A stretch of 64,000 nucleotides of DNA from Escherichia phage iGC_PHA_EC001: the sequence record OR437326.1; one strand, written 5' to 3'. A program made the position numbers and the translations under genes. Below, one piece after another: positions 51,827 to 63,383 of the stretch. Positions within the stretch are counted from its first letter, which is position 1. The number at the start of each line of letters is the position of its first letter. The notes beneath the pieces are model-generated. The model did not search any database. It was not told the origin of the DNA and saw nothing but the letters and a program-made list of their open reading frames with translations.

Positions 51827-52077
51827 TGTTAAGCGTTAAGCCTAAGATGATCAGTGAAGACCAGAAAGATTTCATTTACAAGTGTGGACGAATCTGGAGA
51901 GAGTATACCAAGGGTAACGAGGTCGTGGTGGTTACTGAACACCAGATTGAAATCTCTGATCTTTTCGGTGATTATTTGCAAGTGATCAAATTAGGCATTG
52001 ACAGAGGTTTGGTGCAGGTGTTAACATTATCCCAAGTTGAAGCAGAACACTTAGACAAAATCATTGTCGAGTTCTAA
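51826..52077 (+). CDS. Hypothetical protein
   Basis: 83-aa ORF. Confidence 0.3.
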   Translation: MLSVKPKMISEDQKDFIYKCGRIWREYTKGNEVVVVTEHQIEISDLFGDYLQVIKLGIDRGLVQVLTLSQVEAEHLDKIIVEF

Positions 52078-52255
52078 GAGGAGAAAGAATATGATCTCTT
52101 TAGAATCAATAGCTTTTAAGAAAGGGTATACCGCAGGGTTCAAGTTTGGTATGTTTAATAAAGTAAATCCATACTGTCCAATGACACACAAAAAGGAATT
52201 CGAAGAATGGGAAGATGGATTTTCTAAAGGCTACCAGGCAAAGGGTTGGTTGTAA
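52064..52255 (+). CDS. Hypothetical protein
   Basis: 63-aa ORF. Confidence 0.3.
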   Translation: MSSSKRRKNMISLESIAFKKGYTAGFKFGMFNKVNPYCPMTHKKEFEEWEDGFSKGYQAKGWL

Positions 52256-52410
52256 GGAGAGAATATGATTTTAAACTTCATCATCAACTTGTGTTTGACA
52301 TTGGGACTACTCTGTGCAATAGTATCCCCTCTGGTTGGTGAATATTGTTCTGAACTGGCGATGTTTATAGTTCTTGGTGCAGCTATTGCTAATATGTTTG
52401 TCGCTGCGAT

Positions 52411-52770
52411 TTGTATGTTGTGGGAATAGGAGGGAAGTTTATGAAAAAATTAATCTTAGCCACATTGCTGGCTACCGTAAGCTTCACCACTTACGCTCAA
52501 AAATTTGTAGCAGTTAAAACGGATATTGGTAAAGATGTTGTGATCACAGGCAACAAATTTTACTATACCCCTGGAAATGGTGTTCTAGAAGAGTGCCAAG
52601 ATGTTGAGGCATATACAGGAAAAGAAGATAACACGGAACGTCCTTTTTATTCGATTATAGCTACTTGCAAAAATGAAATAGTAGCTATTAAACAATACAA
52701 AGATGCCCCTGGAGGAGAGTACTTATTAATCAAGAATATTAAGAGTGAAAAACTACAAAGTTTACAGTAA
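52411..52770 (+). CDS. Secreted hypothetical protein (signal peptide)
   Basis: MKKLILATLLATVSFTTYAQ. Confidence 0.35.
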   Translation: MYVVGIGGKFMKKLILATLLATVSFTTYAQKFVAVKTDIGKDVVITGNKFYYTPGNGVLEECQDVEAYTGKEDNTERPFYSIIATCKNEIVAIKQYKDAPGGEYLLIKNIKSEKLQSLQ

Positions 52771-52795
52771 TTATTTTAAAAGGAGAAACGTTCTA

Positions 52796-53935
52796 ATGAA
52801 ATACACTATTTTTGGAGATGTGGCTGTTGTAAATAAGGAATATGGTGTTGAAGCTAATAAACTTCCTGCTGGAGTTTGGGTTGTCAACTGCGATCCGCAC
52901 GGTAACTACTCTTTAGTGCGTGGCGAAAGTTTCTCTCTTCCGAACACTCTTTATGGGGAAACTAAAGACCGCGCCGCACATGTTATTAAAACATTTGCTC
53001 GTCGTAGTAAAGAAGGTAAAAATACTGGGGTGTTACTGACAGGAACAAAGGGCAGTGGTAAGACGATGTTAGCTAAACTGATTAGCATGTCCCTAATGTC
53101 CACAGAAGGTTTAGGTATTCCAACCATTTTGGTGACACAGCCTTACACAGATGCTGGATTCTTAGAATTTATGAGTAAAATTACAGATCGTGCTGTTGTT
53201 TTATTTGACGAGTTTGATAAAGTGTACGCTAAGAAAGAAGATCAGGAAGCACTGTTGACCTTGTTGGATGGAACAGGAAGTGGAAATAAACTTTACATCC
53301 TCACTAAAAATAGTGGCTATATCTCGGAATATTTTGTAAACCGTCCTAGTCGTATCTACTACAGTTTCAATTACGATAAACTGTCTAGTGAAACTATGTT
53401 AGATTACTTGGATAAGAACTTGGTAAATAAAAAGCACGTAGATAACTTCCAACGTTTATGGGATGTTAGCACAGAGTTGTCTTTCGATGTTATTCAAGGC
53501 ATTGTAGAAGAATTGAATTTCTATCCAAAAATGACTTTTAAAGAATGTCTTGAAATGATGGGTATTTCTTTAGGGAACGATGCTAAATGGAATGTGGCTT
53601 CTATCGTAGCTAATGGCAAAACCTTGAAGGTGAATTGGATCAATAACTGGCACGACTTCACCCCTACTAAGTTTTTGTCGGGTGCTTGTTCCCTGAACAT
53701 CTATCTACAAAGTTTGAAAGATGATGAAGTGGAAGCAATAGAAACCAACAGTTATGTTATCCTGGATGAAGATGGTGATCCACATATTGATCTATGTGCA
53801 ACGGCGGATGGTCTAACTTGCGATCTGATTGAAGGTGGTAAGATTCTTGTGATGAGCACTACACCAGGAAACACTCTGCGAGTGGTGCTGGAGCCTGTAA
53901 CACAACGTTCCACCACACTTGGTAGCGTGTTCTAA
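52796..53935 (+). CDS. AAA+ ATPase
   Basis: Start at ATG 52796 after AAAGGAG; Walker A GVLLTGTKGSGKTMLAKL; Walker B VVLFDEFDKV. Confidence 0.55.
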   Translation: MKYTIFGDVAVVNKEYGVEANKLPAGVWVVNCDPHGNYSLVRGESFSLPNTLYGETKDRAAHVIKTFARRSKEGKNTGVLLTGTKGSGKTMLAKLISMSLMSTEGLGIPTILVTQPYTDAGFLEFMSKITDRAVVLFDEFDKVYAKKEDQEALLTLLDGTGSGNKLYILTKNSGYISEYFVNRPSRIYYSFNYDKLSSETMLDYLDKNLVNKKHVDNFQRLWDVSTELSFDVIQGIVEELNFYPKMTFKECLEMMGISLGNDAKWNVASIVANGKTLKVNWINNWHDFTPTKFLSGACSLNIYLQSLKDDEVEAIETNSYVILDEDGDPHIDLCATADGLTCDLIEGGKILVMSTTPGNTLRVVLEPVTQRSTTLGSVF

Positions 53936-53940
53936 TAAAG

Positions 53941-53965
53941 ATGCCCCGCAAGGGGCATTTCTTAT
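53941..53965 (+). terminator. Rho-independent terminator
   Basis: ATGCCCC-gcaa-GGGGCAT followed by TTCTT. Confidence 0.55.
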
Positions 53966-53976
53966 AGGATGAAATC

Positions 53977-55185
53977 ATGAGTAAAGCTAAAAGTTGGGAA
54001 GAATATAAAGCAGAATGCGAGATCATAGCTCTCTCTAAAGGATATAAAATTTTAGGCCATAAAGAATGGAAAGGGTGTGAGACTAAACTCCTGATAGAAT
54101 GTCCTGTGCACGGTGTATGGGATACTTGTAAAATATCTAACTTTAAAAGTGGGAAGTCTTGCCCTTCTTGTGGTGAATTAACAAAAAGGGAGAAGAGAAC
54201 GAAGAGCAGAGAGGACCAAGAGAAAGAGTGTGAAGAAGAAGCGTTAAAAAGAGGTTGGCGCTTCTTGGGTATCTATGGAGAATGGCTGAAAGCTAAAAAG
54301 ACACGAGTAATCTTACGTTGTGATAGGGGTCACGAGTTTAACACATCTACCATAGACAACTTTAAGAATAATAAACAAGGTTGTCCAGTTTGTCGTTTAG
54401 AGGATATAGGTAAACACAATAAGCTTTCAGACGATCAGCACATACAAGATTTCATGAGTACGGGTGTGTTTCCCGAAGGCACTACCTTCACTAATACAGG
54501 GGAAAAAGCTGGGAGGAGCGAAATACTTTGGAGTGTATTTTGCCCTATCTGTGCTATAGATGAGTTTTCCAAAGCTGGGGTAGGAACGGGATATTTTATC
54601 GGTAGAGGTAGTTCATTAAAACAGGGTATGCGCCCTTGTCGTTGTTCTGCCAGTTACAAATATTCTGAAGAAGAGATGACATTTAGAGCAAAAAGTGACG
54701 TAGAACGTAGAGGGTACGTGTGGTTGGGGTGGATCGGGAAAGCTTCTATACTTGGGGATTTTGAATATGGTTGCAAGGATCATGGGAAACATGTGTGTAG
54801 TGCTAACAATTGGTTAAATAAGGGGTGTGGTTGCCCTGGTTGTGCAGGTATGAATCAACAACAAGCCTACATTAATTATATTTACGATGAGCAAGATATT
54901 ATCTGTGCACTGAAGTTTGGTATTGCTAATAATAGTAATCGCCGTATCAAAGAACAAAATAGTCGTAATGTGTTTACTATGAAACAGAGCCAAGTGTGGC
55001 ACTTCCCTACTGTGAAGCAATGCAAAGATGCAGAAAAGCGTTGTAAGCGTGTCCTTCACACGGAAGCAGTGAGCAAATATTCTATGCCAGATGGCTACAC
55101 AGAGACAGTGGAGTTATCTTGCATGGCATCAATACAAAATATTTATAAACTTTATGGTGGAACATTACAGGAGGAAACATGTTAG
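53977..55185 (+). CDS. Cys-rich protein with three tandem zinc-ribbon-like repeats
   Basis: Three repeats of G-[YW]-x-[IF]-LG..W..x..C..HG..x..NF..G..CP-x-C (from aa 20, 90 and 236). Confidence 0.4.
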   Translation: MSKAKSWEEYKAECEIIALSKGYKILGHKEWKGCETKLLIECPVHGVWDTCKISNFKSGKSCPSCGELTKREKRTKSREDQEKECEEEALKRGWRFLGIYGEWLKAKKTRVILRCDRGHEFNTSTIDNFKNNKQGCPVCRLEDIGKHNKLSDDQHIQDFMSTGVFPEGTTFTNTGEKAGRSEILWSVFCPICAIDEFSKAGVGTGYFIGRGSSLKQGMRPCRCSASYKYSEEEMTFRAKSDVERRGYVWLGWIGKASILGDFEYGCKDHGKHVCSANNWLNKGCGCPGCAGMNQQQAYINYIYDEQDIICALKFGIANNSNRRIKEQNSRNVFTMKQSQVWHFPTVKQCKDAEKRCKRVLHTEAVSKYSMPDGYTETVELSCMASIQNIYKLYGGTLQEETC

Positions 55186-55544
55186 TTGACGTTCAAATTA
55201 TGCGCAACGAAAGAATGGACTTCTTTGAAGCAGTAGAGAAACATCTGATCAGATGGGACTATGAATTTGTTCCTGCTGGATGTGGACCAGTAGAGCATTT
55301 AGCGGAAGACGACGATGTATACATGATCATTCGTCAAGTGTACCAGACAGACCAGTGTGAAGAAACTCCCGAACTAATTTTGTTTGAGTGCAAAGATCTT
55401 GCAAAATATTTTGACTATGGCGGAAAAGAGGGTCATAATCTCTCCAGATACAATAAACGTCTACTTATCTTAGACTACATGCGGAACAACAAACACAAAC
55501 TCATCGACGCAGACGCAGTTTATGGCTACTGGTGGATGGACTAA
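55179..55544 (+). CDS. Hypothetical protein
   Basis: 121-aa ORF. Confidence 0.3.
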   Translation: MLVDVQIMRNERMDFFEAVEKHLIRWDYEFVPAGCGPVEHLAEDDDVYMIIRQVYQTDQCEETPELILFECKDLAKYFDYGGKEGHNLSRYNKRLLILDYMRNNKHKLIDADAVYGYWWMD

Positions 55545-55737
55545 CAAAGGAGAAACTATGGCACGTTTAGCAGATCATGAAATCTTTAAACCTATTCTGA
55601 ACCACTATGATGAACTTAAAGCAGTGTTGGATTGTTATAAAGAGGATGAAGAACGCTTGGAAGTCAATCTTAAGATAGTTCTGATGAAAGCTTTTCAAGA
55701 CGGGCAAGCTAAAGTCTTAGAAGGTATGAAAAAATGA
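55522..55737 (+). CDS. Hypothetical protein
   Basis: 71-aa ORF. Confidence 0.3.
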   Translation: MATGGWTNKGETMARLADHEIFKPILNHYDELKAVLDCYKEDEERLEVNLKIVLMKAFQDGQAKVLEGMKK

Positions 55738-56276
55738 GAATAACTGACGAATATGTATTCTTCTTTTCACATAAAGATGTTTTTAGTAATTGGTATATTG
55801 CACCCTTTACAGAAACCGAACCAGGTTACAATCAGACATTTAATTGTGTCGAACAATACATGATGTGGCGTAAAGCTTTGCTTTTTAATGACCACAACAC
55901 TGCACAGGCTATTCTGACTCATAGTTTGATACGGAAAGATGAGAAGATCCAAGCTTATTACAAACGTATGGGTAGGGCAGTGTCGGATTTTGATAACAAT
56001 ATGTGGGAAGAGAACCGTGAGCGTATTGTTATGCGAGGTTTATGCTTGAAATATGTACAGAATCCAGATTTGTATGCAGACTTACACCTTTACCAATACA
56101 AAACGTTTGTTGAAGCAAGCCCCTACGATAAGGTTTACGGAATTGGAATGGGGATGTATGAACCAGGGGTGCTAAACCCTGCCACCTGGAAAGGACAGAA
56201 TCTTTTAGGCAAATATCATAATAAACTGATCGAAATACTTTTCCCAGACAAAATACCGCAAAGACGATATTTGTGA
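55734..56276 (+). CDS. NADAR-domain (YbiA-like) protein
   Basis: VFFFSHKDVFSNWY..PF..x..FNCVEQYMMWRKALLF..x..NPDLYADL..x..EASPYDKVYGIGMG matches the NADAR family pattern. Confidence 0.6.
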   Translation: MRITDEYVFFFSHKDVFSNWYIAPFTETEPGYNQTFNCVEQYMMWRKALLFNDHNTAQAILTHSLIRKDEKIQAYYKRMGRAVSDFDNNMWEENRERIVMRGLCLKYVQNPDLYADLHLYQYKTFVEASPYDKVYGIGMGMYEPGVLNPATWKGQNLLGKYHNKLIEILFPDKIPQRRYL

Positions 56277-56330
56277 TATTTTAACTTTTTTCATTTTTAG
56301 AACAAAGGTGTCACTTTGTAGCACAGAAAT

Positions 56331-56368
56331 AAGGCTCCTACAGCACCGTAGAGAGCCTGTTATTTTGT
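56331..56368 (+). terminator. Rho-independent terminator ending the + gene block
   Basis: AGGCTC-ctacagcaccgtaga-GAGCCT hairpin followed by GTTATTTTGTCC. Confidence 0.5.
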
Positions 56369-56520
56369 CCTATACAAACCCTTGTCTTTTTCAGTTTGCA
56401 TCACTAGGATTCGATCTGAGTGGGTTCCTGAAGGTCTGCCAATAAGATTAAAGGTTATCTCAAACTCCCATTACCTATTATCTCAAAAATCCCTCAAATT
56501 ATTTAAACTTTTTAAGAATT

Positions 56521-56566
56521 TACAAAAGTGAAAGTTGAAAACCAAAATTTAAAGTTTAGGAAAATT
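56521..56566. repeat. AT-rich direct repeat, copy 1 (iteron-like)
   Basis: TACAAAAGTGAAAGTTGAAAACCAAAATTTAAAGTTTAGGAAAATT; about 80% identical to copy 2. Confidence 0.45.
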
Positions 56567-56658
56567 ATCTTAAAATGTCAGATACAAAACAAAACTCAAA
56601 AGTCAAGGAAAATTTTAAAAATTTTGCGCGCCCACAGTATTTAAAGTTTTTTTGCTTT

Positions 56659-56704
56659 TACAAAAATGAAAGTACAAAAGCAAAATTTAAAGTTTACAAA
56701 AATT
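56659..56704. repeat. AT-rich direct repeat, copy 2 (iteron-like)
   Basis: TACAAAAATGAAAGTACAAAAGCAAAATTTAAAGTTTACAAAAATT. Confidence 0.45.
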
Positions 56705-56714
56705 TATGCAGATG

Positions 56715-56825
56715 GGAATGAGAAGAGTTCTCATATGGAAATGCAAATGATAATGATTCGCATTTAGGTTTATAAATGAGATTGATTCTTATTTGATAAG
56801 GTAAATGATAATCATTCTCATTTAG
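56715..56825. promoter_or_regulatory. Cluster of Fur-box-like palindromes
   Basis: AATGAGAAGAGTTCTCAT (56717..56734), AAATGATAATGATTCGCATT (about 14/19 to GATAATGATAATCATTATC), AATGATAATCATTCTC (about 16/19 including an exact AATGATAATCATT 13-mer). Confidence 0.4.
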
Positions 56826-57055
56826 AGAATGACGCGCAGGGGCGGTGTTTGTCTCGCGCTCCCGTGTCCCCTCGCCATGTAATAAGAATAACAGATCCAG
56901 CCAGGAAAGCAAGCGATTATTTTATCTTTACATTTCTTTACAAATATATAGCGCCCAGCCTACCGGCGATCAACCTTCCAACCAGTGCCCCTGGTATGTT
57001 AGCCCCGCCTTTACGCCGTGGGGTGGCGCTTCCTCTTCTGTATGTAAAACAGTAT

Positions 57056-57095
57056 AAGCCCGATCCCTGGGCTTGTCAAGATTATTTTTTGTTTT
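57056..57095. terminator. Bidirectional terminator
   Basis: AAGCCCGATCCCTGGGCTT hairpin; T-run ATTATTTTTTGTTTTC on + side; lies at the 3' end of - gene 57082..57348. Confidence 0.5.
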
Positions 57096-57348
57096 CTTGC
57101 CAGGTCAGGACACCTAGCCAAAAATGAATATCACCTTTTCCCCAATGTGGTATATTGCTTTCTTTCCCACCTTCACGCGCCCAGGTAAAACCGCCCGTGT
57201 AACTTTGTAATTGATAACTATCCTCGACCTTATAATCTGATAGGTTGAGAACGGTTTCAACCTTTAAGCCCGTTGCGCTTGCTACCTGGTGCACCGTGCC
57301 GCCTTGCCAGCCCAATGAGTGCATAAGATGTAATGTAGTATTTGTCAT
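57082..57348 (-). CDS. Hypothetical protein
   Basis: 88-aa ORF, the only - strand gene in the early region. Confidence 0.3.
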   Translation of the reverse strand: MTNTTLHLMHSLGWQGGTVHQVASATGLKVETVLNLSDYKVEDSYQLQSYTGGFTWAREGGKESNIPHWGKGDIHFWLGVLTWQENKK

Positions 57349-57456
57349 GGTGTCGCCCTTTCTTTGTTGTGCGCCCTGGTTGGCGCGGTAGAAAGATGAT
57401 AGCCCTTTCCTTTATATATAGCAAGCAAAAAGAAAATAAAAAAGATTGAAAAAGTG

Positions 57457-57514
57457 GTTGACGTTCGCCAGGTGGCGGCATAATATTTACCACGTAGCGC
57501 GGCAATGGTGCCGC
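57457..57514 (+). promoter_or_regulatory. Early promoter plus 5' stem-loop cassette
   Basis: TTGACG, 17 bp, TAATAT, then hairpin GCGGCAATGGTGCCGC, then GGAG and ATG. Confidence 0.5.
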
Positions 57515-57535
57515 TCACTATTTGGAGTTAAGATC

Positions 57536-57733
57536 ATGGCAACATTGCACATTGTGGCGAAAGCTGGACAAATCAACGTAATAGTAAACGGTTTTACTGA
57601 GTTCAGTCATCCCCAGGATGATCATGAAACGGTTTTATCTTTCATTGATTCCCTGTTAGAAATGGGAGTCATTACAGAAGACCAGCACGCTACAAAATGC
57701 AAGCGCGTTAATCAAATTGCAGGGATAGAATAA
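57536..57733 (+). CDS. Early hypothetical protein
   Basis: Start set at ATG 57536 downstream of the cassette (the listed 57446 start would run through the promoter). Confidence 0.4.
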   Translation: MATLHIVAKAGQINVIVNGFTEFSHPQDDHETVLSFIDSLLEMGVITEDQHATKCKRVNQIAGIE

Positions 57734-57739
57734 AAAGTA

Positions 57740-57798
57740 TTGACAACAAACAACAACCTGATAAGATGTATCACATAGGGCGGGAAGTGGTTTCCCGC
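57740..57798 (+). promoter_or_regulatory. Early promoter plus 5' stem-loop cassette
   Basis: TTGACA, 16 bp, TGaTAAGAT extended -10, hairpin GGGCGGGAA-gtggt-TTCCCGC. Confidence 0.55.
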
Positions 57799-57823
57799 TC
57801 GTAACAGAAGAGAGATTATCATC

Positions 57824-58096
57824 ATGGCATCATATAGCGCAACAATGATCGTAGCTGGCACAACTGGTAAACCTATGAGCGGTGTCGGATCTTTCGCTAA
57901 TATCAATATTGACGGGCGTTTATCCCTGGACGCAGCGATTGCCATTGCACGGGAAACATTTAAGAAAGAATGTAATTTCAACAAGCAAGATTATCTCGGT
58001 TTCGCTATTGAAAAAACCGCGCGCTTTGTTGATTATAAAAGCCCGAAAATGGTTGATACTACACTAAAAGCGCAAGATGTAGCGTTTTTGCTTTAA
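57824..58096 (+). CDS. Early hypothetical protein
   Basis: 90-aa ORF after cassette; AGAGAG site. Confidence 0.4.
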   Translation: MASYSATMIVAGTTGKPMSGVGSFANINIDGRLSLDAAIAIARETFKKECNFNKQDYLGFAIEKTARFVDYKSPKMVDTTLKAQDVAFLL

Positions 58097-58099
58097 GGC

Positions 58100-58156
58100 T
58101 TGACATTAACGAATAATTTGTTAATATGTTACATAAAGCGGGAATAGTTCCCGCTA
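58100..58156 (+). promoter_or_regulatory. Early promoter plus 5' stem-loop cassette
   Basis: TTGACA, 16 bp, TAATAT, hairpin AGCGGGAA-tag-TTCCCGCT. Confidence 0.55.
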
Positions 58157-58172
58157 TTTGTAAGGTGGTAGA

Positions 58173-58430
58173 ATGTTTTACATCAAATTAAAAGGTCACG
58201 TGATCGCGTTCAAAGATAACGCTTTTTACAGATTAGCAAAATATGCGTTAATACATCCCCACTATGTTTATATAAGGGGGCGTGACGAAATAAATATCTT
58301 TGATCAAACAACATGCGAAAACATCGAGATCCGCAAGGTTGGCGTACGTGATTATCGTACATCTTTCTACCCTTGCAAGGATTCAGCAAGTCTTTTTAAG
58401 GTATGTCAATTGTTGAAAAAAGGTGGTTAA
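58173..58430 (+). CDS. Early hypothetical protein
   Basis: 85-aa ORF after cassette. Confidence 0.4.
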   Translation: MFYIKLKGHVIAFKDNAFYRLAKYALIHPHYVYIRGRDEINIFDQTTCENIEIRKVGVRDYRTSFYPCKDSASLFKVCQLLKKGG

Positions 58431-58431
58431 T

Positions 58432-58989
58432 ATGGGCCGCGAATATGTGATCCAGTCTTGGGTAAAACATGAAGCAGATGATCCGCGCATCATTCCCGAT
58501 CATCTTATCGATGAATCCACGGGATATAGCGGTGAGCAAATAGGTAACAGATTAGCACGTAGTAACGGCAACATAAAAGCGCGTTATGTGCGCCCTGGCT
58601 GGCTGGCAAATGGTAACGCTGATTTATCCAGTGCGGAAGATGCGAGCGACGGCGCGAAAGATAATCCTTTGTACAAAATTGATCCGGCTTTTCGTGTCCT
58701 GGATGAATACCCCAGCAAGATAGCGGCGCTTGATGAAGCATTGGAAAGTAAGCGCATCTCCTGGACCGCTTACAACATGGCAAAAAACGTACTTGATGGT
58801 AAATTGATTCAAGCTGAAAGAAAATTAGCCAAAATTGCAGCCATAGCCCAGGAGGAAGACGAGGAGACAACGGAAGAGGAAGAGTACGAAGAGATCCCGC
58901 CGTTGTTGTGTGTTGATGCTTTTCCTGATTATCAGCCGACAGAGGAAGAAAAAAGGATCGCACTAGAAAACTTTGAAAATAGTCTTTGA
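58432..58989 (+). CDS. Early hypothetical protein with acidic C-terminal region
   Basis: ATG 58432 after AAAGGTGG; 185 aa. Confidence 0.4.
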   Translation: MGREYVIQSWVKHEADDPRIIPDHLIDESTGYSGEQIGNRLARSNGNIKARYVRPGWLANGNADLSSAEDASDGAKDNPLYKIDPAFRVLDEYPSKIAALDEALESKRISWTAYNMAKNVLDGKLIQAERKLAKIAAIAQEEDEETTEEEEYEEIPPLLCVDAFPDYQPTEEEKRIALENFENSL

Positions 58990-59044
58990 CATATCGCCGC
59001 CACTGGCATAATATTTACCACGTAGGGCGGCAATGGTGCCGCTC
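58986..59044 (+). promoter_or_regulatory. Early promoter plus 5' stem-loop cassette
   Basis: TTGACA, 17 bp, TAATAT, hairpin GGGCGGCAATGGTGCCGCTC. Confidence 0.55.
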
Positions 59045-59071
59045 ATAGTGAAATTATGCAAGAGGTTTACA

Positions 59072-59167
59072 ATGATTGATAAAGAAAATAGCTTGACGGT
59101 TGGAACGATTAACGCTATCATTCTTGCCGTTCCATTTTGGATTGTATTAGCGGCTATTATTTTCTAA
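59072..59167 (+). CDS. Possible 31-aa hydrophobic peptide
   Basis: Short ORF MIDKENSLTVGTINAIILAVPFWIVLAAIIF between two cassettes; below the ORF-track size cutoff. Confidence 0.2.
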   Translation: MIDKENSLTVGTINAIILAVPFWIVLAAIIF

Positions 59168-59176
59168 AAAATATTC

Positions 59177-59237
59177 TTGACAACGTTTTTTAATCTGATA
59201 AGATGTATCACATAGGGCGGCGGAATACTTCCCCGCC
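59177..59237 (+). promoter_or_regulatory. Early promoter plus 5' stem-loop cassette
   Basis: TTGACA, 16 bp, TGaTAAGAT, hairpin GGCGGGGAA-gta-TTCCGCCGCC read on either strand. Confidence 0.55.
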
Positions 59238-59258
59238 AAAACAAAAAAGGGTAACACA

Positions 59259-59621
59259 ATGAGCAAGCAAATCAATACTATCATGTTTAATCTGGTATCT
59301 TTCCGCGATGATATGAAAAATTTACCACGTGAAACGGTTGATATTCATGTTTCAGCTTATCGCGCCCTTATTGATATGTTACCGCTAAAACGTGATCAAC
59401 ATGCCGCTAATATGATGCTTAATGCTATGCTTAAAAAGATGATTCAAACGGATCTTACTCTGGCGTATGAGTATCAAGGGCGCTTATATGCTACTTACAA
59501 CAAAGCGGTACCTGGTCTGGGAAGTACCGAAGAGTTGCACGGCTTAAACCTGGATCAAAACACTTGGGATAGTATGCGCCGCGTTATGGTATGGGCCGAA
59601 AGCGGTAAAATTTACGAATAA
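59259..59621 (+). CDS. Early hypothetical protein
   Basis: 120-aa ORF after cassette. Confidence 0.4.
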   Translation: MSKQINTIMFNLVSFRDDMKNLPRETVDIHVSAYRALIDMLPLKRDQHAANMMLNAMLKKMIQTDLTLAYEYQGRLYATYNKAVPGLGSTEELHGLNLDQNTWDSMRRVMVWAESGKIYE

Positions 59622-59626
59622 AAACG

Positions 59627-59685
59627 GTTGACACTGTTTAAAATTCTGGTATAGTTTATCACGTAGGGCGGCAATGGTGCCGCCA
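59627..59685 (+). promoter_or_regulatory. Early promoter plus 5' stem-loop cassette
   Basis: TTGACA, 17 bp, TGgTATAGT, hairpin GGCGGCA-atg-GTGCCGCC. Confidence 0.55.
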
Positions 59686-59704
59686 ATAATGAAAGGTTAA
59701 CATC

Positions 59705-59884
59705 ATGGCTATCATTGCAAAAACTGAGATTATAGGTTTAGATCCGATCCTCCTGGCTTATGAGGAAACTTTAAAAATGTATGTAGTGACCTATGGTGAT
59801 TATGTGCGTGAATACGAATACATTGATCTTGCTTTCGAATGTTACATTCGCCAGGTCAATAAAGCCTATAACGATTATCGTTAA
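59705..59884 (+). CDS. Early hypothetical protein (59 aa)
   Basis: ORF after cassette, below the ORF-track size cutoff. Confidence 0.35.
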   Translation: MAIIAKTEIIGLDPILLAYEETLKMYVVTYGDYVREYEYIDLAFECYIRQVNKAYNDYR

Positions 59885-59902
59885 AAGTTTTAGTCTTATA
59901 CT

Positions 59903-59931
59903 ATTGACAATGAGTGATAGTATAAGCATAA
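59903..59931 (+). promoter_or_regulatory. Early promoter (no GC stem-loop; degenerate cassette)
   Basis: TTGACA followed by AT-rich -10 region (TATAAG/CATAAT) upstream of 59980. Confidence 0.35.
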
Positions 59932-59979
59932 TAACTTTTATCGGGAATACTCCTAACTAATCAAAAGAGATTAAAGACT

Positions 59980-60345
59980 ATGGCTAAAAATATCAATGTT
60001 TCTGCTTATGCTACCCTGGCTAACACTGCTAAAATTGAACTATCCAGCATTGAAGCGGTACATATTAGCGCCCGTCGCTGGTTTCAAAAGTCTTATGGTA
60101 ATACTTATTTCTCTTTGATGGTTGACGTTGAGATCGGCGGTAAACTGATCGAAGTGGTTAACGTTCCGTTTCAATATGGCTATGGGGATCATTTTGATAC
60201 CGTCGCCCTAGAAGAGTTTAGCAAGGTTATCAACCTGGAAGGTAAAGAGTTTTCAAATTATGCCTACCTTTCCCGTTTTTGCCGTGACAATGGGATCACT
60301 GTATACAGTCATGCGAGCGATGTAAAACGTAAAAAAGATTTATAA
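59980..60345 (+). CDS. Early hypothetical protein
   Basis: 121-aa ORF. Confidence 0.4.
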   Translation: MAKNINVSAYATLANTAKIELSSIEAVHISARRWFQKSYGNTYFSLMVDVEIGGKLIEVVNVPFQYGYGDHFDTVALEEFSKVINLEGKEFSNYAYLSRFCRDNGITVYSHASDVKRKKDL

Positions 60346-60351
60346 AAAGCA

Positions 60352-60411
60352 TTGACAGCACGAATAAAAAGAGTAAACTGTATTACATAGAGAGCGGGAA
60401 CACTTCCCGCC
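60352..60411 (+). promoter_or_regulatory. Early promoter plus 5' stem-loop cassette
   Basis: TTGACA; GAGTAAACTGTATTACATAG box; hairpin GCGGGAA-cac-TTCCCGC. Confidence 0.55.
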
Positions 60412-60434
60412 TCACTGAAAAAGAGAGAAAAATC

Positions 60435-60674
60435 ATGGCTAAATCTAAAATGTACAACGGTCACAAAAACAAAACTCATTGGAATGTAAGCCTTTGGATT
60501 AATAACGATGAATCGTTATACCGGTTGGCCCAAGATTTTATTAACGCTAATGCTAATCGTAATGATGCGGCGCGGGATATGATGCTTTTTCTGGAACAAA
60601 CTGGACAAGATAAAACGCCAGACGGTTTCAAATATAGCACTACTGCGATCCGTGCCGCGATGGTTGGAATGTAA
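60435..60674 (+). CDS. Early hypothetical protein
   Basis: 79-aa ORF after cassette. Confidence 0.4.
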   Translation: MAKSKMYNGHKNKTHWNVSLWINNDESLYRLAQDFINANANRNDAARDMMLFLEQTGQDKTPDGFKYSTTAIRAAMVGM

Positions 60675-60684
60675 TAAAAACAGT

Positions 60685-60744
60685 TGACAACGTTTAAAAT
60701 TAGTGTAAGATGTATCACATAGGGCGGGAAGTGGTTTCCCGCCA
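60685..60744 (+). promoter_or_regulatory. Early promoter plus 5' stem-loop cassette
   Basis: TTGACA; GTGTAAGATGTATCACATAG box; hairpin GGGCGGGAA-gtggt-TTCCCGCC. Confidence 0.55.
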
Positions 60745-60764
60745 AAACAGAGAGATTAAAGATT

Positions 60765-60992
60765 ATGGCTATCAATATTGTTCGCGTATCCGGCACCGTT
60801 GGCACTTCCCAGGTTATTGCAGTTGTAACAAACAAAAAGATTAATGATGTATGTGAGATCTTGAATAAGTGGGCTATTGCTAATTTTGGGGAATATGCAA
60901 GCGTCGAGTACATCGAATCCTACCAGGTGCCAACCATCAGCCTAACCGATCTCAACGTTGATCGCCTGTTATGCCTGGATGAATTGATCTGA
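60765..60992 (+). CDS. Early hypothetical protein
   Basis: 75-aa ORF after cassette. Confidence 0.4.
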   Translation: MAINIVRVSGTVGTSQVIAVVTNKKINDVCEILNKWAIANFGEYASVEYIESYQVPTISLTDLNVDRLLCLDELI

Positions 60993-61001
60993 AAAAGATT
61001 G

Positions 61002-61059
61002 TTGACACCGGAAAGAAAAAGAGTAAACTGTATTACGTAGGGCGGCAATGGTGCCGCTC
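61002..61059 (+). promoter_or_regulatory. Early promoter plus 5' stem-loop cassette
   Basis: TTGACA; GAGTAAACTGTATTACGTAG box; hairpin GGGCGGCAATGGTGCCGCTC. Confidence 0.55.
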
Positions 61060-61082
61060 ACAACAAAAGAGAGATTATTACG

Positions 61083-61295
61083 ATGGCTAATATCCGCACA
61101 CTGTTAAAAAATGCAAGTCAAGTTTTATTTTCTGATCACGATCATTTTAATAAAGATATTACAGGCGTGAAGAATATCAAAGATGTAAAAAGTGTTATGG
61201 GTATATATTGCAATGTTAAACGTGTTGGAACTTTCGGTGATAAAGTATTGTACCAATCAGGGGATTACAATTTTACTTTGACAATTATTTCATAA
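61083..61295 (+). CDS. Early hypothetical protein
   Basis: 70-aa ORF after cassette. Confidence 0.4.
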   Translation: MANIRTLLKNASQVLFSDHDHFNKDITGVKNIKDVKSVMGIYCNVKRVGTFGDKVLYQSGDYNFTLTIIS

Positions 61296-61301
61296 AACCG
61301 C

Positions 61302-61363
61302 TTGCAATCTTAATAAAATAAAGTAAACTGTATTACATCAAGGCGGCGGAATGGTCCACCGCC
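61302..61363 (+). promoter_or_regulatory. Early promoter plus 5' stem-loop cassette
   Basis: TTGCAA; AAGTAAACTGTATTACATCA box; hairpin GGCGGTGGA-ccatt-CCGCCGCC read on either strand. Confidence 0.5.
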
Positions 61364-61387
61364 TAACAAAGAGAAGAGGAAAATATC

Positions 61388-61609
61388 ATGATCACTTTCG
61401 CTATTGTCGCCGTTGTCGCTGGTCAGGTTTACGTAAACGATACATTCACCACAGAAGACAAGGCCGCAGGAGACATAACCGCCGTTTACAACGAGTGCAA
61501 GGCAGTAGAAAGGATGTTAGCGCCTTGTATGTTAATGAGTGAACGCCAGGACGGGATAACAGTGTTTACTAACATTGAAACAGGGTACCAAATGGTAGTA
61601 ACAAAATAA
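61388..61609 (+). CDS. Early hypothetical hydrophobic/acidic protein
   Basis: 73-aa ORF with AGAGAAGAGGA site upstream; preferred over the overlapping Arg-rich frame 61351..61542. Confidence 0.4.
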   Translation: MITFAIVAVVAGQVYVNDTFTTEDKAAGDITAVYNECKAVERMLAPCMLMSERQDGITVFTNIETGYQMVVTK

Positions 61610-61612
61610 AGC

Positions 61613-61670
61613 TTGACACGGATTTAATTTTCAGTAAACTGTTACACGTAGGGCGGGAATAGTTCCCGCT
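61613..61670 (+). promoter_or_regulatory. Early promoter plus 5' stem-loop cassette
   Basis: TTGACA; CAGTAAACTGTTACACGTAG box; hairpin GGGCGGGAA-tag-TTCCCGCT. Confidence 0.55.
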
Positions 61671-61687
61671 AAAAAGAGAGAAAGACC

Positions 61688-62041
61688 ATGAAAGCACAAA
61701 ATGCAATTAAAGAGTACATCCTTGCCGCTATCGATTTTAATGATTACGGTATTACAACCGAAAAAGAGAAGATCGCGGAATTGATGCGCCGTTTTAATTC
61801 CGAGTACTGGTACCCTGATAATCAATCACGTTTTAATTATAGTATTGTTAAAGCACTTGCATCATGGTTACAAGGCTTGCCATCAGATATTAACATAGCT
61901 TTCGAATATTGGGAAATTGATCGTTTGTTAACATCCTGGGGATACATTAAAGAGAATAGCAGCGATGATAAAATCCAACGAGAAAGGGAAAATTATTGGC
62001 TTTATATTGCAGGCGTGATCCTTGCTTGCTCTTATGAATGA
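61688..62041 (+). CDS. Early hypothetical protein
   Basis: 117-aa ORF after cassette. Confidence 0.4.
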   Translation: MKAQNAIKEYILAAIDFNDYGITTEKEKIAELMRRFNSEYWYPDNQSRFNYSIVKALASWLQGLPSDINIAFEYWEIDRLLTSWGYIKENSSDDKIQRERENYWLYIAGVILACSYE

Positions 62042-62047
62042 TAAACC

Positions 62048-62102
62048 TTGACAATTTTACAAAACAGTTTAAATTAATAATATAGCGGCAATGGTGCCGC
62101 TC
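62048..62102 (+). promoter_or_regulatory. Early promoter plus 5' stem-loop cassette
   Basis: TTGACA, AT-rich -10 region (TAATAATAT), hairpin AGCGGCAATGGTGCCGCT. Confidence 0.5.
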
Positions 62103-62120
62103 ATATAAAGAGGAAACAAA

Positions 62121-62267
62121 ATGAATACATCTAATCGCGCAGAAAAAATTCAATCTTCCAAGATCCGCAAGGCCTGGAACGAGGAAGTGATCCGCAAAGG
62201 CGACAAGCGTAATAAAACAAAGCGCGGGAAGAGTGACAAATATAATTGGATGGATTTAGAGGATTAA
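62121..62267 (+). CDS. Early small basic protein (48 aa)
   Basis: ORF MNTSNRAEKIQSSKIRKAW..; AAAGAGGAAA site; followed by terminator. Confidence 0.35.
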   Translation: MNTSNRAEKIQSSKIRKAWNEEVIRKGDKRNKTKRGKSDKYNWMDLED

Positions 62268-62274
62268 CATAACA

Positions 62275-62302
62275 AGGGCGCACCAAGCGCCCTTTCTTTT
62301 TA
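62275..62302 (+). terminator. Rho-independent terminator
   Basis: AGGGCGC-accaa-GCGCCCT followed by TTCTTTTTAC. Confidence 0.55.
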
Positions 62303-62322
62303 CATGTAGAGGATAAACAAAA

Positions 62323-62508
62323 ATGACTTTAAACGAGCTTAAAACAGCCTACAACGCAACATTAAAAATAGCCGTGCGTTACCGTGACGAATACGGTTTT
62401 ATTGCGCAGGGCGTTATCCTGGGCTTTTCTGACGATGGTTTGATCTATGTTGATGCACATCACAACAAGGTTAAACCGGAAAACGTTATCAGTATAAAAT
62501 ATCTTTAA
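62323..62508 (+). CDS. Early hypothetical protein
   Basis: 61-aa ORF. Confidence 0.35.
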   Translation: MTLNELKTAYNATLKIAVRYRDEYGFIAQGVILGFSDDGLIYVDAHHNKVKPENVISIKYL

Positions 62509-62514
62509 AAGTGG

Positions 62515-62573
62515 TTGACACCATAACCGGACCTGTTAAACTGTATTACATCAGGCGGGGAATAGTTCCCACC
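62515..62573 (+). promoter_or_regulatory. Early promoter plus 5' stem-loop cassette
   Basis: TTGACA; TGTTAAACTGTATTACATCA box; hairpin GGCGGGGAA-tag-TTCCCACC. Confidence 0.5.
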
Positions 62574-62592
62574 ATACAAAAAGGTAAATATT

Positions 62593-62799
62593 ATGATCAC
62601 CGCAAAACAAGAAAAAATCATTATCGACGTTGCAGCCGTAGCCGCTATTGCTATTATCGGTACCTACTATGACACCGCGCGTCCTTCCTCCTTGCATGAG
62701 ATCGCCGCCGTTGCATCAGTTGGCGTACTGTTTTACGTTGGTAAACGCTATTTATCACCAATGATTAACAAGCTGACACCGTGGAAAAATAAAGGTTGA
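62593..62799 (+). CDS. Early small membrane protein
   Basis: 68 aa with hydrophobic IIDVAAVAAIAIIGTYY and IAAVASVGVLFYV. Confidence 0.4.
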   Translation: MITAKQEKIIIDVAAVAAIAIIGTYYDTARPSSLHEIAAVASVGVLFYVGKRYLSPMINKLTPWKNKG

Positions 62800-62852
62800 T
62801 CCTGTTTTATATTGTGTTATAGTTATCGTGTAGGGCGGCAATGGTGCCGCGC
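62796..62852 (+). promoter_or_regulatory. Early promoter plus 5' stem-loop cassette
   Basis: TTGATC; TGTTATAGT -10-like; hairpin GGGCGGCAATGGTGCCGCGCCC. Confidence 0.45.
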
Positions 62853-62870
62853 CCCTTTGAGGATGCAATC

Positions 62871-63155
62871 ATGAGTAAAGCTAACACCGTGCTAATGTTT
62901 TCCCTGATTAATGATCCCGCTTACTTGTCCAACATGACGCAGGAGGGTAACACATTAACGGCAACATTCACCAATAAGCTTGACCGAGTGATCATCATCT
63001 CACTGAAAACAGTTAGTAAAGGCTTTTACTCGTTAGCTTATCATTGGATCACTGATACCGATGAGACAAGCCAGGACTATAGCGCCCCTTTCCCTGAATC
63101 AATGGCACGGGAGATCATCGCCGCCGTTGTAAATGATGGTTTGTTTACTGGATAA
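62871..63155 (+). CDS. Early hypothetical protein
   Basis: Start set at ATG 62871 after GAGGATG; the listed 62841 start would translate the cassette hairpin. Confidence 0.4.
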   Translation: MSKANTVLMFSLINDPAYLSNMTQEGNTLTATFTNKLDRVIIISLKTVSKGFYSLAYHWITDTDETSQDYSAPFPESMAREIIAAVVNDGLFTG

Positions 63156-63173
63156 AATAATTCAGAAAAAGGC

Positions 63174-63230
63174 TTGCAATCATTTTGGGATAATGTATAT
63201 TTAATGCATAGGGCGGCGGGAATAGTTCCC
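63174..63230 (+). promoter_or_regulatory. Early promoter plus 5' stem-loop cassette
   Basis: TTGCAA, spacer, TAATGT; hairpin GGCGGCGGGAA-tag-TTCCC. Confidence 0.45.
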
Positions 63231-63253
63231 AAAGCAAACGAGAGGATTACACG

Positions 63254-63373
63254 ATGAGCAAGTACACAGTAGAATACACGGTAGAGAATCCGGCAGTATC
63301 CGAAGGTAAAAAGATGACATTTGCCATCAGTATAATCGCTTTCGTTGTCACTATCTTATCAATCATCTTATAA
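63254..63373 (+). CDS. Possible 39-aa membrane peptide
   Basis: MSKYTVEYTVENPAVSEGKKMTFAISIIAFVVTILSIIL; GAGAGGA site. Confidence 0.3.
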   Translation: MSKYTVEYTVENPAVSEGKKMTFAISIIAFVVTILSIIL

Positions 63374-63383
63374 GGTGCACACC

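What the first reader, a model, noticed from the sequence alone, without database searches (positions are those of the whole stretch)
56370..57100. About 730-bp noncoding region with iteron-like repeats and Fur-box-like palindromes between the + gene block and the early region
No convincing ORF lies between the terminator at 56331..56368 and the bidirectional terminator at 57056..57095. The region holds two 46-bp AT-rich direct repeats (56521..56566 and 56659..56704), further TTTAAAGTTT repeats, and three palindromes resembling the Fur operator, including an exact AATGATAATCATT 13-mer. A GC-richer 250-bp stretch follows with no credible coding potential. Candidates: a replication origin, an iron-responsive (Fur-repressed) promoter driving a noncoding RNA, or both.
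Basis: seen in the sequence. Interest (0 to 1): 0.55.

Follow-up and report, generated by a model that had tools for sequence, protein, structure and literature searches.

The report
Conserved phage RNA locus with Fur boxes
This gene-free gap in a phAPEC8-like E. coli phage holds four binding-site-like sequences for the host iron sensor Fur, next to an undescribed non-coding element kept in two large phage subfamilies that most likely encodes small RNAs read from the opposite strand.

Summary
56370-57100 has no conserved ORF. It contains a 72-nt AT-rich repeat pair and four (not three) Fur-box-like palindromes exactly 29 bp apart (56716-56823).

A matrix built only from phage palindromes places its top hits on the fepA-fes, fepB-entC, fepD-entS and sodA promoters of E. 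coli K-12. By sequence, the palindromes are Fur boxes.

The GC-rich 250 bp is the main finding. Two modules (A 56826-56878, B 56946-57044) are the only DNA still alignable with PVP-SE1-, Certrevirus-, Klebsiella- and rV5-like phages. They have no match in Rfam, E. coli genomes or plasmids.

Conserved sigma-70 promoters lie on the minus strand. A second lies between the modules, preceded by an exact CpxR-type GTAAA-N5-GTAAA box. A covarying helix with G.U pairs valid only on the minus strand begins at the predicted RNA-A start.

Best reading: two small minus-strand RNAs that end at the Fur array. A Fur-repressed plus-strand RNA, an origin and a Fur decoy are not excluded. All transcripts and all protein binding are inferred. 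The AT-rich repeats are genus-specific, and nothing tested supports an origin.

The parts
56331..56368 (.). Intrinsic terminator that closes the + gene block (after the NADAR gene). It has a T-run on one side and an A-run on the other, so it could also stop leftward transcripts.
   Evidence: Sequence. Annotated as a rho-independent terminator in phage ASO2A.
56370..56715 (.). AT-rich segment (29% GC) holding the 72-nt direct repeat pair 56495-56566 / 56633-56704. Specific to the genus and its sister genus. Role unknown.
   Evidence: Repeat pair. Conservation limits. It contains the lowest-GC 346-bp stretch of the window.
56716..56823 (.). Array of four Fur-box-like 21-bp palindromes starting at 56716, 56745, 56774 and 56803, on an exact 29-bp period.
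   Evidence: The phage-derived matrix finds the E. coli ent/fep and sodA promoters. Best E. coli BLAST matches lie at a TonB-dependent receptor promoter and the mntP promoter.
56811..56833 (-). Nine-pair hairpin followed by UAUCAUUU. It is a terminator-like 3' end for RNA-A, built from the right half of the last Fur box plus GAGAAT. It is strong only in this genus.
   Evidence: Including it lowers the fold z-score to -3.15.
56826..56878 (-). Module A, the predicted RNA-A core. The closing helix P1 pairs 56878-56873 (AUGGCG) with 56834-56829 (CGUCAU). The invariant loop is GAGACAAACACC (+ strand 56844-56855).
   Evidence: Conservation across two subfamilies. P1 covariation. No ORF.
56885..56912 (-). 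Inner minus-strand promoter. In this genome it is TTGCTT-16-TATTCT (8/12). The predicted start is at 56878. An alternative 9/12 site is 56943..56916.
   Evidence: A positionally conserved promoter in every other lineage (TTGATC-16-TATTAT, TTGCAA-17-TATATT, TTGACC-17-GATAAT, TTGACA-16-TATTAT).
56927..56941 (-). GTAAAGAAATGTAAA, an exact GTAAA-N5-GTAAA direct repeat of the CpxR-box form, upstream of the inner promoter.
   Evidence: It is conserved wherever the inner -35 is weak, and reduced or absent where the -35 is strong. The only exact copy in 40 kb of E. coli K-12 is in the cpxR-cpxP intergenic region.
56946..57044 (-). Module B, the predicted RNA-B. It has a 33-nt near-invariant core (+ strand GTTAGCCCCGCCTTTACGCCGTGGGGTGGCG) and a hairpin with one perfectly covarying pair.
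   Evidence: Fold z-score -1.5.
57051..57079 (-). Outer minus-strand promoter TTGACA-17-TATACT (11/12), with an upstream A-tract. A GC hairpin (57056-57074) lies in its spacer and also fits as a terminator for the 88-aa gene. Predicted start about 57044.
   Evidence: The hexamers are conserved and the spacer varies in all lineages.
57082..57348 (-). Neighbouring 88-aa gene of unknown function (phrog_19316). It is not part of the element and is absent from several lineages that keep the element.
   Evidence: Context tables.

Best explanation
The region is a conserved, phage-specific, non-coding locus read by the host RNA polymerase from the minus strand.

- A strong early-type promoter (57079..57051) starts RNA-B near 57044. 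This covers module B, about 100 nt.
- A second promoter between the modules is preceded by a CpxR-type box and has a weak -35, so it is probably activator-dependent. It starts RNA-A near 56878.
- RNA-A is a roughly 50-nt hairpin domain whose first six bases pair with 56834-56829. Its loop, GAGACAAWCACC, is invariant.
- Five bases beyond RNA-A lies an array of four Fur boxes.
- When loaded with iron, Fur would bind the array. It would then either set the 3' end of the leftward transcripts as a roadblock (together with the local hairpin), or silence a weak opposing promoter embedded in the boxes.

Shown here: sequence conservation, promoter geometry, one covarying helix, and Fur-box and CpxR-box identity by sequence.

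Inferred: that the RNAs are made, their ends, that Fur and CpxR bind, and what the RNAs target.
For: 1. Island of conservation. In PVP-SE1, Certrevirus and other distant loci of up to 14 kb, the only DNA similarity to window 52000-60500 is 56744/56804-57045. 370 phage records match. The length from module A to the end of module B is constant at 234-243 nt.
2. Non-coding.
3. Minus-strand sigma-70 promoters recur at +40..+50 and +194..+213 from the module A anchor in essentially every lineage. This includes the tandem duplicates in rV5. The hexamers are conserved and the spacers vary. No plus-strand promoter is conserved at the same stringency. The outer site matches this phage's own early-promoter signature.
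4. Helix P1 starts about 7 nt after the -10 of the inner promoter. It is 94.8% paired. Two pairs show AU/GC/GU series. Covariation is 0.322 against 0.216 in shuffles (1/500). Its 10 G.U cells would be A.C on the other strand.
5. Module B hairpin pair 59-81 is AU:11 / GC:11 with no intermediates.
6. Fur boxes: and host matches.
7. CpxR-type box: exact, conserved, and anticorrelated with -35 strength.
8. The last Fur box sits at a fixed distance (-38) from the module A loop in all lineages and in both rV5 copies.
Against: - There are no expression data of any kind.
- Single-sequence folding is not better than shuffles for the RNA-A core (z = -0.06) and only mildly better for RNA-B (z = -1.5).
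- RNAalifold found no compensatory pairs on the plus-strand module B alignment. P1 was found by eye before it was tested, which inflates the slide control.
- Many sequences are closely related, and phage mosaicism means the covarying haplotypes may have spread by recombination.
- Some candidate helices favour the plus strand. One is a long 3' hairpin in module B with three invariant G.U pairs followed by a U/C-rich tract. Another is the module A helix GACGCG/CGUGUC.
- In the window's own genus the inner promoter is only 8/12, and a 9/12 alternative exists.
- No canonical terminator follows RNA-B, and outside this genus none follows RNA-A.
- A Fur site about 55 nt downstream of a start site is not the usual repressor geometry.
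Confidence: 0.45

Rival explanations
1. A Fur-repressed promoter embedded in the palindromes drives a plus-strand non-coding RNA of about 210 nt through modules A and B. It ends at the hairpin plus U/C-rich tract at about 57000-57040. Under iron limitation it would be made and could also act as antisense to the minus-strand transcripts.
For: - The Fur box lies in the spacer of TTGAAT-18-CAGAAT in Vequintavirinae. From memory, this layout resembles the aerobactin iucA promoter.
- The plus-strand long hairpin YGUUAGCCCCGC...GGGGUGGCG has three invariant G.U pairs and is followed by UUUCCUCUUCUGU.
- The plus-strand module A fold GACGCG..CGUGUC uses G.U pairs.
- The Fur box keeps a fixed distance to module A.
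Against: - That promoter is 8/12 at best, and its -35 is lost in Stephanstirmvirinae, including this window (GTAAAT, CAAAAT).
- A start 7 nt after CAGAAT would omit the 5' arm of either closing helix.
- P1 fails on the plus strand.
- The MFE comparison does not favour the plus strand.
- No plus-strand promoter is conserved upstream of module B.
Confidence: 0.17
2. A replication origin. Strong inward promoters make a G-rich RNA that forms a persistent hybrid on the C-rich template, as in ColE1 RNA II or the T4 oriF/oriG type. That hybrid primes DNA synthesis next to the most AT-rich, repeat-bearing DNA of the region, which unwinds. The Fur boxes modulate firing.
For: - The lowest-GC stretch of the whole window lies at 56470, and it carries repeats.
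- The minus-strand RNA is the G-rich strand over module B (G 24, C 35 on the + strand).
- Promoters point at the AT-rich DNA.
- The element is essential-looking and conserved as DNA.
- The locus lies between gene blocks.
Against: - The AT-rich repeats are not conserved beyond the genus and its sister genus, whereas the modules are.
- There are no DnaA boxes.
- The neighbours are a generic AAA ATPase, an endonuclease and a NADAR protein, not an initiator.
- Cumulative GC skew turns only where gene orientation turns.
- Specific invariant loops and a covarying terminal helix suit a folded RNA better than a mere hybrid-forming tract.
- rV5 has the A unit twice.
Confidence: 0.13
3. A host-factor decoy. 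The Fur-box array (and possibly the CpxR box) acts mainly by titration. As the genome is copied to hundreds of copies, the boxes soak up Fur and derepress host iron uptake, whatever is transcribed nearby.
For: - The same boxes, on the same 29-bp period, occur in unrelated T5-like phages, in non-coding DNA with no modules A/B.
- There are up to nine boxes per array, and the array lies in a terminal repeat, so it is present twice per genome.
- Multicopy Fur boxes are known to titrate Fur in vivo (the Fur titration assay, from memory).
Against: - The last box keeps a fixed distance from module A in every lineage and in both rV5 copies. This argues for local regulatory coupling.
- Several lineages have a single box (PVP-SE1, L016), which would be a poor sponge.
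- No data exist on Fur occupancy or on the host iron regulon during infection.
Confidence: 0.12

Closest known systems
Fur-regulated promoters and operators of Enterobacteriaceae (fepA-fes, fepB-entC, fepD-entS, sodA, aerobactin iucA)
   Same: The motif is the same. A matrix built only from the phage sites ranks those E. coli promoters first. Matches to the 19-bp consensus overlap in 6-nt phase. Sites occur in tandem, as in strong operators.
   Different: Four to nine boxes on a strict 29-bp period in a virulent phage. They are not placed over a clear -35/-10 of a protein-coding gene. They lie about 55 nt downstream of the best-predicted start site, on the opposite side of the RNA.
Fur-repressed small RNAs (RyhB type)
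   Same: A small non-coding RNA locus adjacent to Fur boxes.
   Different: No sequence or Rfam similarity. The conserved promoters are on the other strand. The locus is phage-borne and absent from E. coli genomes.
CpxR-activated promoters (cpxP/cpxRA)
   Same: An exact GTAAA-N5-GTAAA just upstream of a weak -35. The centre is about -48, or about -58 in this genus, one helical turn further.
   Different: Binding is untested. A single exact occurrence is not significant in 64 kb (0.35 expected). The support comes only from conservation and from the anticorrelation with -35 strength.
T5 'Repeat Region 3' / injection-stop-signal region
   Same: It shares the Fur-box-like palindromes, and in rV5 a second palindrome, TTAGCGTGCTAA. 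It is non-coding and conserved, and its function is unknown.
   Different: T5-like phages have DnaA boxes and DRD repeats there, and no modules A/B. The present locus has no DnaA boxes and is internal, not in a terminal repeat.
Phage-encoded small RNAs in general, and transcription-primed origins (ColE1 RNA II, T4 oriF/oriG)
   Same: Promoter plus a short structured RNA in an intergenic gap. A G-rich transcript next to AT-rich DNA.
   Different: No homology to any described family. No primer-processing or unwinding evidence.

Membership tests
Fur box (E. coli-type Fur operator) | Match to the 19-bp consensus GATAATGATAATCATTATC, beyond chance | tested here: met
   16/19 at 56801-56819, with 0.02 expected per window. 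The top two matches of the window and 5 of the 14 sites at 14/19 all lie in 56743-56825.
Fur box (E. coli-type Fur operator) | The motif is equivalent to experimentally established Fur operators | tested here: met
   The phage-only matrix gives its top 4 hits of 45 kb in fepA-fes, fepB-entC (two hits) and fepD-entS, scoring 15.7-11.2, with the next hit at 5.9. The top hit of another 40 kb is upstream of sodA. That these promoters are Fur-controlled is established knowledge recalled from memory.
Fur box (E. coli-type Fur operator) | Fur protein binds, and iron-dependent regulation follows | not testable with these tools
   Needs EMSA or footprinting, and infection of fur mutant or iron-depleted hosts.
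Small regulatory RNA gene | Promoter at a conserved position | tested here: met
   Minus-strand promoters at two fixed positions in all lineages.
Small regulatory RNA gene | Conserved secondary structure with compensatory changes | tested here: inconclusive
   P1: two pairs with double changes, covariation above 499/500 shuffles. Module B: one pair AU:11 / GC:11. The rest is invariant. RNAalifold found no compensatory pairs. MFE z-scores are weak.
Small regulatory RNA gene | Intrinsic terminator at the 3' end | tested here: inconclusive
   This genus has a 9-bp hairpin plus a U-rich tail after RNA-A. It is weak or absent in other lineages, and none is clear after RNA-B.
Small regulatory RNA gene | A transcript is detected | not testable with these tools
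   No transcriptome of these phages was found in the searchable literature.
Any Rfam family | Covariance-model match | tested here: not met
   Nothing on modules A/B at E up to 10 in the window, or at E up to 5 in five diverged lineages.
CpxR box | GTAAA-N5-GTAAA upstream of a promoter | tested here: met
   Exact at 56927-56941. Conserved in 17 loci. The same form occurs uniquely in the cpxR-cpxP intergenic region.
CpxR box | CpxR-P binds and activates | not testable with these tools
   Needs EMSA and infection of a cpxR mutant host.
Iteron- or DnaA-type replication origin | Conserved iterons or DnaA boxes beside an AT-rich unwinding element and an initiator gene | tested here: not met
   No DnaA boxes. 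The AT-rich repeats are not conserved beyond the sister genus. No initiator gene is adjacent. AT-richness alone is met.

The most novel reading that the evidence does not exclude
Virulent enterobacterial phages of unrelated lineages (rV5/phAPEC8-like and T5-like) carry arrays of host Fur boxes, and here also a CpxR box, to tap or manipulate host stress sensing. As the genome replicates, the arrays titrate Fur and derepress iron uptake for the phage's iron-dependent nucleotide synthesis. Fur occupancy also gates a new family of phage small RNAs.
Probability: 0.15. Interest if true: 0.8.

Novelty: new variant of a known kind. Interest (0 to 1): 0.62.

Why it matters
Phages of the rV5, PVP-SE1, phi92 and phAPEC8 groups are widely used in phage therapy and biocontrol, yet this locus is left blank or filled with spurious ORFs in their annotations.

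It is the most conserved DNA of its neighbourhood across two subfamilies, so it almost certainly does something important.

If the reading is right, it adds a new phage RNA family. It would also be a clear case of a strictly lytic phage wiring host iron (Fur) and envelope-stress (CpxR) sensors into its early programme. Iron limitation and envelope stress are the conditions met in the gut and in infection.

The shared Fur-box arrays also offer a concrete, testable lead for the long-unexplained repeat region at the end of the T5 terminal repeat.

Tried and rejected
- Rfam scans of the window and of five diverged lineages gave nothing on the modules. A tRNA/tmRNA scan found none.
- Protein-coding reading: rejected. 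There are no PHROG hits, no conserved frame, and frame-breaking indels.
- Host or plasmid origin of modules A/B: no E. coli match. Plasmid hits were only chance AT-rich Bacillus matches. One 4-kb MAG contig matched among 185,579 species genomes.
- My first by-eye model was a plus-strand hairpin with G.U pairs around the loop GGUGWUUGUCUC. An MFE comparison of both strands did not favour the plus strand (15/21 and 14/22 sequences fold better on the minus strand), so I dropped it as the main model.
- RNAalifold on the plus-strand module B alignment gave no compensatory pairs.
- MAFFT misaligned the 5' arms of module A between lineages. I therefore tested P1 on a gap-free pseudo-alignment of the arms plus the fixed-length 3' segment.
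The second, with 15 specified bases, returned mostly chance hits and had to be filtered.
- Resemblances recalled from memory were considered and set aside: the SRP RNA GGAA region, type I-E CRISPR repeats (GTT..CCCCGC..GCGGGG), and anti-Shine-Dalgarno mimicry. No model match exists and the arms do not fit.
- Literature searches for Fur sites in virulent phages, for transcriptomes of these phages and for small RNAs in rV5-like phages found no description of the element.
Full report
IDENTITY AND OBSERVATION

The window is a phAPEC8-like phage (Phapecoctavirus, Stephanstirmvirinae). The 851 bases around the finding are 98-99% identical to many such genomes. Related records leave the gap unannotated, apart from a 38-bp 'repeat_region' in phage anhysbys and a terminator in ASO2A.

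- The 56331-56368 terminator is there.
- The AT-rich direct repeats are there, and they extend to 72 nt at 82% identity: 56495-56566 and 56633-56704.
- The Fur-like palindromes are there.
- The hairpin at 57056-57074 is there.

There are four palindromes, not three, on an exact 29-bp period at 56716, 56745, 56774 and 56803.

No ORF in the gap is credible. The 48-92-aa ORFs hit no PHROG family. No ORF is conserved in frame, length or position, even within the genus. Indels of 1, 2, 5 and 10 nt sit inside the conserved blocks.

THE PALINDROMES ARE FUR BOXES BY SEQUENCE

- The 19-bp Fur consensus matches 56801-56819 at 16/19. The expected number of such matches is 0.02 per window.
- The two best matches in the 64 kb, and five of the fourteen 14/19 matches, lie in 56743-56825. 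They are offset by 6 nt, the hexamer phasing typical of Fur operators.
- I built a weight matrix from 41 distinct palindromes taken only from rV5/phAPEC8-like phages. I scanned E. coli K-12 600000-645000 with it. Its four best hits fall in the three divergent enterobactin promoters: fepA-fes 15.7, fepB-entC 14.7 and 11.2, fepD-entS 13.7. The next hit scores 5.9. Those intergenic regions make up about 1.6% of the stretch.
- In a second 40-kb stretch the top hit lies 80-100 nt upstream of sodA, at 10.5 against 5.5 for the next hit.
- The best BLAST matches of the array in 5,426 E. coli genomes include a site 43 nt upstream of a TonB-dependent receptor gene and the mntP promoter region.
- In the whole window only the four array sites reach 10 bits.

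That these host promoters are Fur-regulated is established knowledge recalled from memory. Fur binding to the phage DNA itself is inferred.

THE GC-RICH STRETCH IS A DEEPLY CONSERVED NON-CODING ELEMENT

A sensitive BLAST of 56370-57100 found 370 phage records. Beyond the genus, only query positions of about 435-680 align. These matches are in Justusliebigvirus, unclassified Stephanstirmvirinae of Klebsiella, Seunavirus (PVP-SE1), Certrevirus (Cronobacter, Pectobacterium, Enterobacter), Mydovirus, Henunavirus (Erwinia) and, for the first half, Vequintavirus (rV5).

In loci of up to 14 kb from distant lineages, the only similarity to window 52000-60500 is 56744/56804-57045. The element is therefore an island in a sea of diverged genes.

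It consists of four parts.
- Module A (56826-56878), with the invariant GGTGWTTGTCTC.
- An AT-rich linker.
- Module B (56946-57044), with a 33-nt near-invariant core.
- A promoter-like end.

The distance from module A to the end of module B is 234-243 nt in every lineage.

rV5-type phages carry 'Fur box + module A' twice in tandem and have no module B. A Pectobacterium phage carries module B twice.

Neither module matches Rfam in the window or in five diverged lineages. Neither matches E. coli genomes, plasmids, or, apart from one 4-kb MAG contig, 185,579 species genomes.

DIRECTION OF TRANSCRIPTION

This phage's early promoters have a clear signature: an A-tract, TTGACA, 16-17 nt, and TAAGAT/TAAACT/TAATAT. 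The site at 57079..57051 on the minus strand (TTGACA-17-TATACT, 11/12, with an A-tract upstream) fits it.

Across lineages the two hexamers are kept (TTGACA/TTGACG/TTGCAA and TATACT/CATAAT/TATAGT/TATATT), while the GC-rich spacer changes freely.

A systematic scan relative to the module A anchor finds minus-strand promoters at +194..+213 in all lineages. It also finds a second one at +40..+50 in nearly all of them: TTGATC-16-TATTAT, TTGCAA-17-TATATT, TTGACC-17-GATAAT, TTGACA-16-TATTAT and TTGACA-17-CAAAAT. No plus-strand promoter is conserved at that stringency.

In the window's own genus the inner site is only 8/12 (TTGCTT-16-TATTCT, 56912..56885). A 9/12 alternative lies at 56943..56916.

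STRUCTURE

My first by-eye model was a plus-strand hairpin. A strand comparison of folding energies did not favour the plus strand.

Read on the minus strand, the six bases that begin about 7 nt after the inner -10 (AUGGCG, 56878-56873) pair with CGUCAU (56834-56829). Relatives show AUGGCG/CGCUAU, AUAGCG/CGCUAU, AUAGCG/UGCUAU and AUAAC/GUUAU.

On a gap-free alignment of 16 distinct sequences the helix gives these figures.
- It is 94.8% paired.
- Two pairs run through AU/GC/GU series (AU:8 GC:5 GU:3, and GC:7 GU:6 AU:3).
- Covariation is 0.322 against 0.216 in shuffles (1/500).
- Slid registers give 21-65% pairing.
- Its ten G.U cells would be A.C on the plus strand, which would lower pairing there to about 84% (inferred from the counts).

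Module B has a hairpin with one pair that is AU in 11 and GC in 11 sequences, with no intermediates. The rest of module B is invariant, and one neighbouring pair is broken in half of the sequences.

These results are modest. I chose the helix before testing it, the sequences are related, and recombination could spread haplotypes.

Evidence pointing the other way also exists. A long plus-strand hairpin in module B has three invariant G.U pairs followed by a U/C-rich tract. A plus-strand module A fold is also possible.

Single-sequence stability is ordinary (z = -0.06 for the RNA-A core and -1.5 for RNA-B). Adding the 9-bp hairpin at 56833..56811 and its U-rich tail gives z = -3.15. That hairpin is strong only in this genus.

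A SECOND HOST-FACTOR SITE

The conserved linker repeat TCTTTACAnnTCTTTACA reads GTAAA-N5-GTAAA on the minus strand. From memory, this is the CpxR-P consensus.
- It occurs once in the window (56927-56941), which alone is not significant: 0.35 expected.
- It is exact in every lineage whose inner promoter has a weak -35. There it lies 5 nt upstream of the -35, or 14-15 nt in this genus, one helical turn further.
- It is reduced to a half-site, or absent, where the -35 is TTGACC or TTGACA.
- The only exact copy in 40 kb of E. coli K-12 lies in the cpxR-cpxP intergenic region.

This pattern fits an activator-dependent promoter. Binding is untested.

MODEL AND RIVALS

The best-supported reading (confidence about 0.45) is two small minus-strand RNAs. 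RNA-B comes from the strong outer promoter. RNA-A comes from the inner, CpxR-box-associated promoter. Transcription runs into the four Fur boxes, which begin 5 nt after RNA-A. Fur would then act as a roadblock that sets the 3' end, or would silence a weak opposing promoter.

The fixed -38 spacing between the last Fur box and the module A loop holds in all lineages and in both rV5 copies. This argues that the box and the RNA work together.

Three rivals remain.
This is the usual Fur geometry in Vequintavirinae, but the promoter is weak and not conserved.
- A transcription-primed origin (0.13). This is the most AT-rich DNA of the window. However, there are no DnaA boxes, no initiator gene next door, no skew signal, and the AT-rich repeats are genus-specific.
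- A Fur decoy (0.12). T5-like phages carry the same boxes, on the same 29-bp period, in the non-coding end of their terminal repeat. The literature calls that region Repeat Region 3 or the injection-stop region. It gives it no function and never mentions Fur.

These readings are not mutually exclusive.

NOVELTY AND VERDICT

I found no description of the element, or of Fur boxes in these virulent phages, in the searchable literature. Phage small RNAs and Fur operators are known kinds. The combination found here is a new variant. It comprises an undescribed RNA-like element conserved across two subfamilies, flanked by a periodic Fur-box array and a CpxR-type box, with related arrays in T5-like phages.

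Its Fur and ncRNA idea is partly right, but the direction is probably wrong. Its origin idea is unsupported.

Interest is 0.62. The finding is specific, widespread and directly testable, but it rests entirely on sequence.

Noticed in passing
L009 (Escherichia phage HASG4, T5-like) 1040-1560; L147 (Erwinia phage KEY) 1171-1498: T5-like phages carry arrays of the same Fur-box-like palindromes in the non-coding end of the terminal repeat: 4 sites in HASG4 and 9 in KEY, partly on the same 29-bp period. The T5 literature calls this 'Repeat Region 3' or the injection-stop region and never mentions Fur.
   Followed up: partly
L007 (rV5) 1448; L009 1124 and 1078; L147 1740; L048 12613: A second palindrome, TTAGCGTGCTAA, is shared between the rV5-type locus and the T5-like repeat region. 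It is not present in the window.
   Followed up: no
L009 about 1258-1273 and 1290-1370: In the T5-like locus, CTGTATATTTATACAG looks like a perfect LexA (SOS) box. It sits next to two TGTGGATAA DnaA boxes, upstream of the Fur-like array.
   Followed up: no
L007 (rV5) 1500-1560 and 1636-1700; L008 (Pectobacterium phage P7_Pc) 1700-2000: Cassette-like behaviour. rV5-type phages have [Fur box + module A + minus promoter] twice in tandem and lack module B. P7_Pc has module B with its promoter twice, and one copy is degenerate.
   Followed up: partly
window 57458-63574 (+ strand), and 35530 and 21278 (- strand): About 15 near-identical early promoters: A-tract, TTGACA, 16-17 nt, TAAGAT/TAAACT/TAATAT. 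Each is followed about 10 nt later by a conserved 5' stem-loop, GGCGG(N)CCGCC, ahead of a tiny gene. Annotators of ASO2A called these hairpins terminators placed after promoters.
   Followed up: partly
window 56927-56941 (- strand): An exact CpxR-box-form repeat, GTAAAGAAATGTAAA. The 9-10-nt insertion between it and the -35 in this genus equals one helical turn. It also creates an alternative promoter-like site, TTGTAA-16-AATAAT, at 56943..56916.
   Followed up: yes
GenBank records MG065650, MG065689, OP562383, MH252123: Records labelled Campylobacter, Acinetobacter and Klebsiella phages are 98-99% identical to this E. coli Phapecoctavirus region. The host labels may be unreliable, or the phages may be contaminants of the propagation strains.
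   Followed up: no
window 53977-55185 (+): A 402-aa protein has three CapR-homology domain repeats plus a weak MUG113/T5orf172-type nuclease signal (PHROG 'endonuclease'). Relatives annotate it as a homing endonuclease. It lies between a generic AAA ATPase and a NADAR-domain gene.
   Followed up: no
L148 (E. coli H7) 1501-1536, Qin-type prophage between ynfN and gnsB: A 36-nt, 84% match to the second and third phage palindromes lies in a cryptic-prophage intergenic region that is not known to me as Fur-regulated.
   Followed up: no
L154 (MAG 'Proteobacteria bacterium' contig JAEZZU010000352.1, 4 kb) 1001-1023: This is the only genome-collection hit to the module B core. It is probably a phage fragment binned into a MAG. 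I did not examine it.
   Followed up: no
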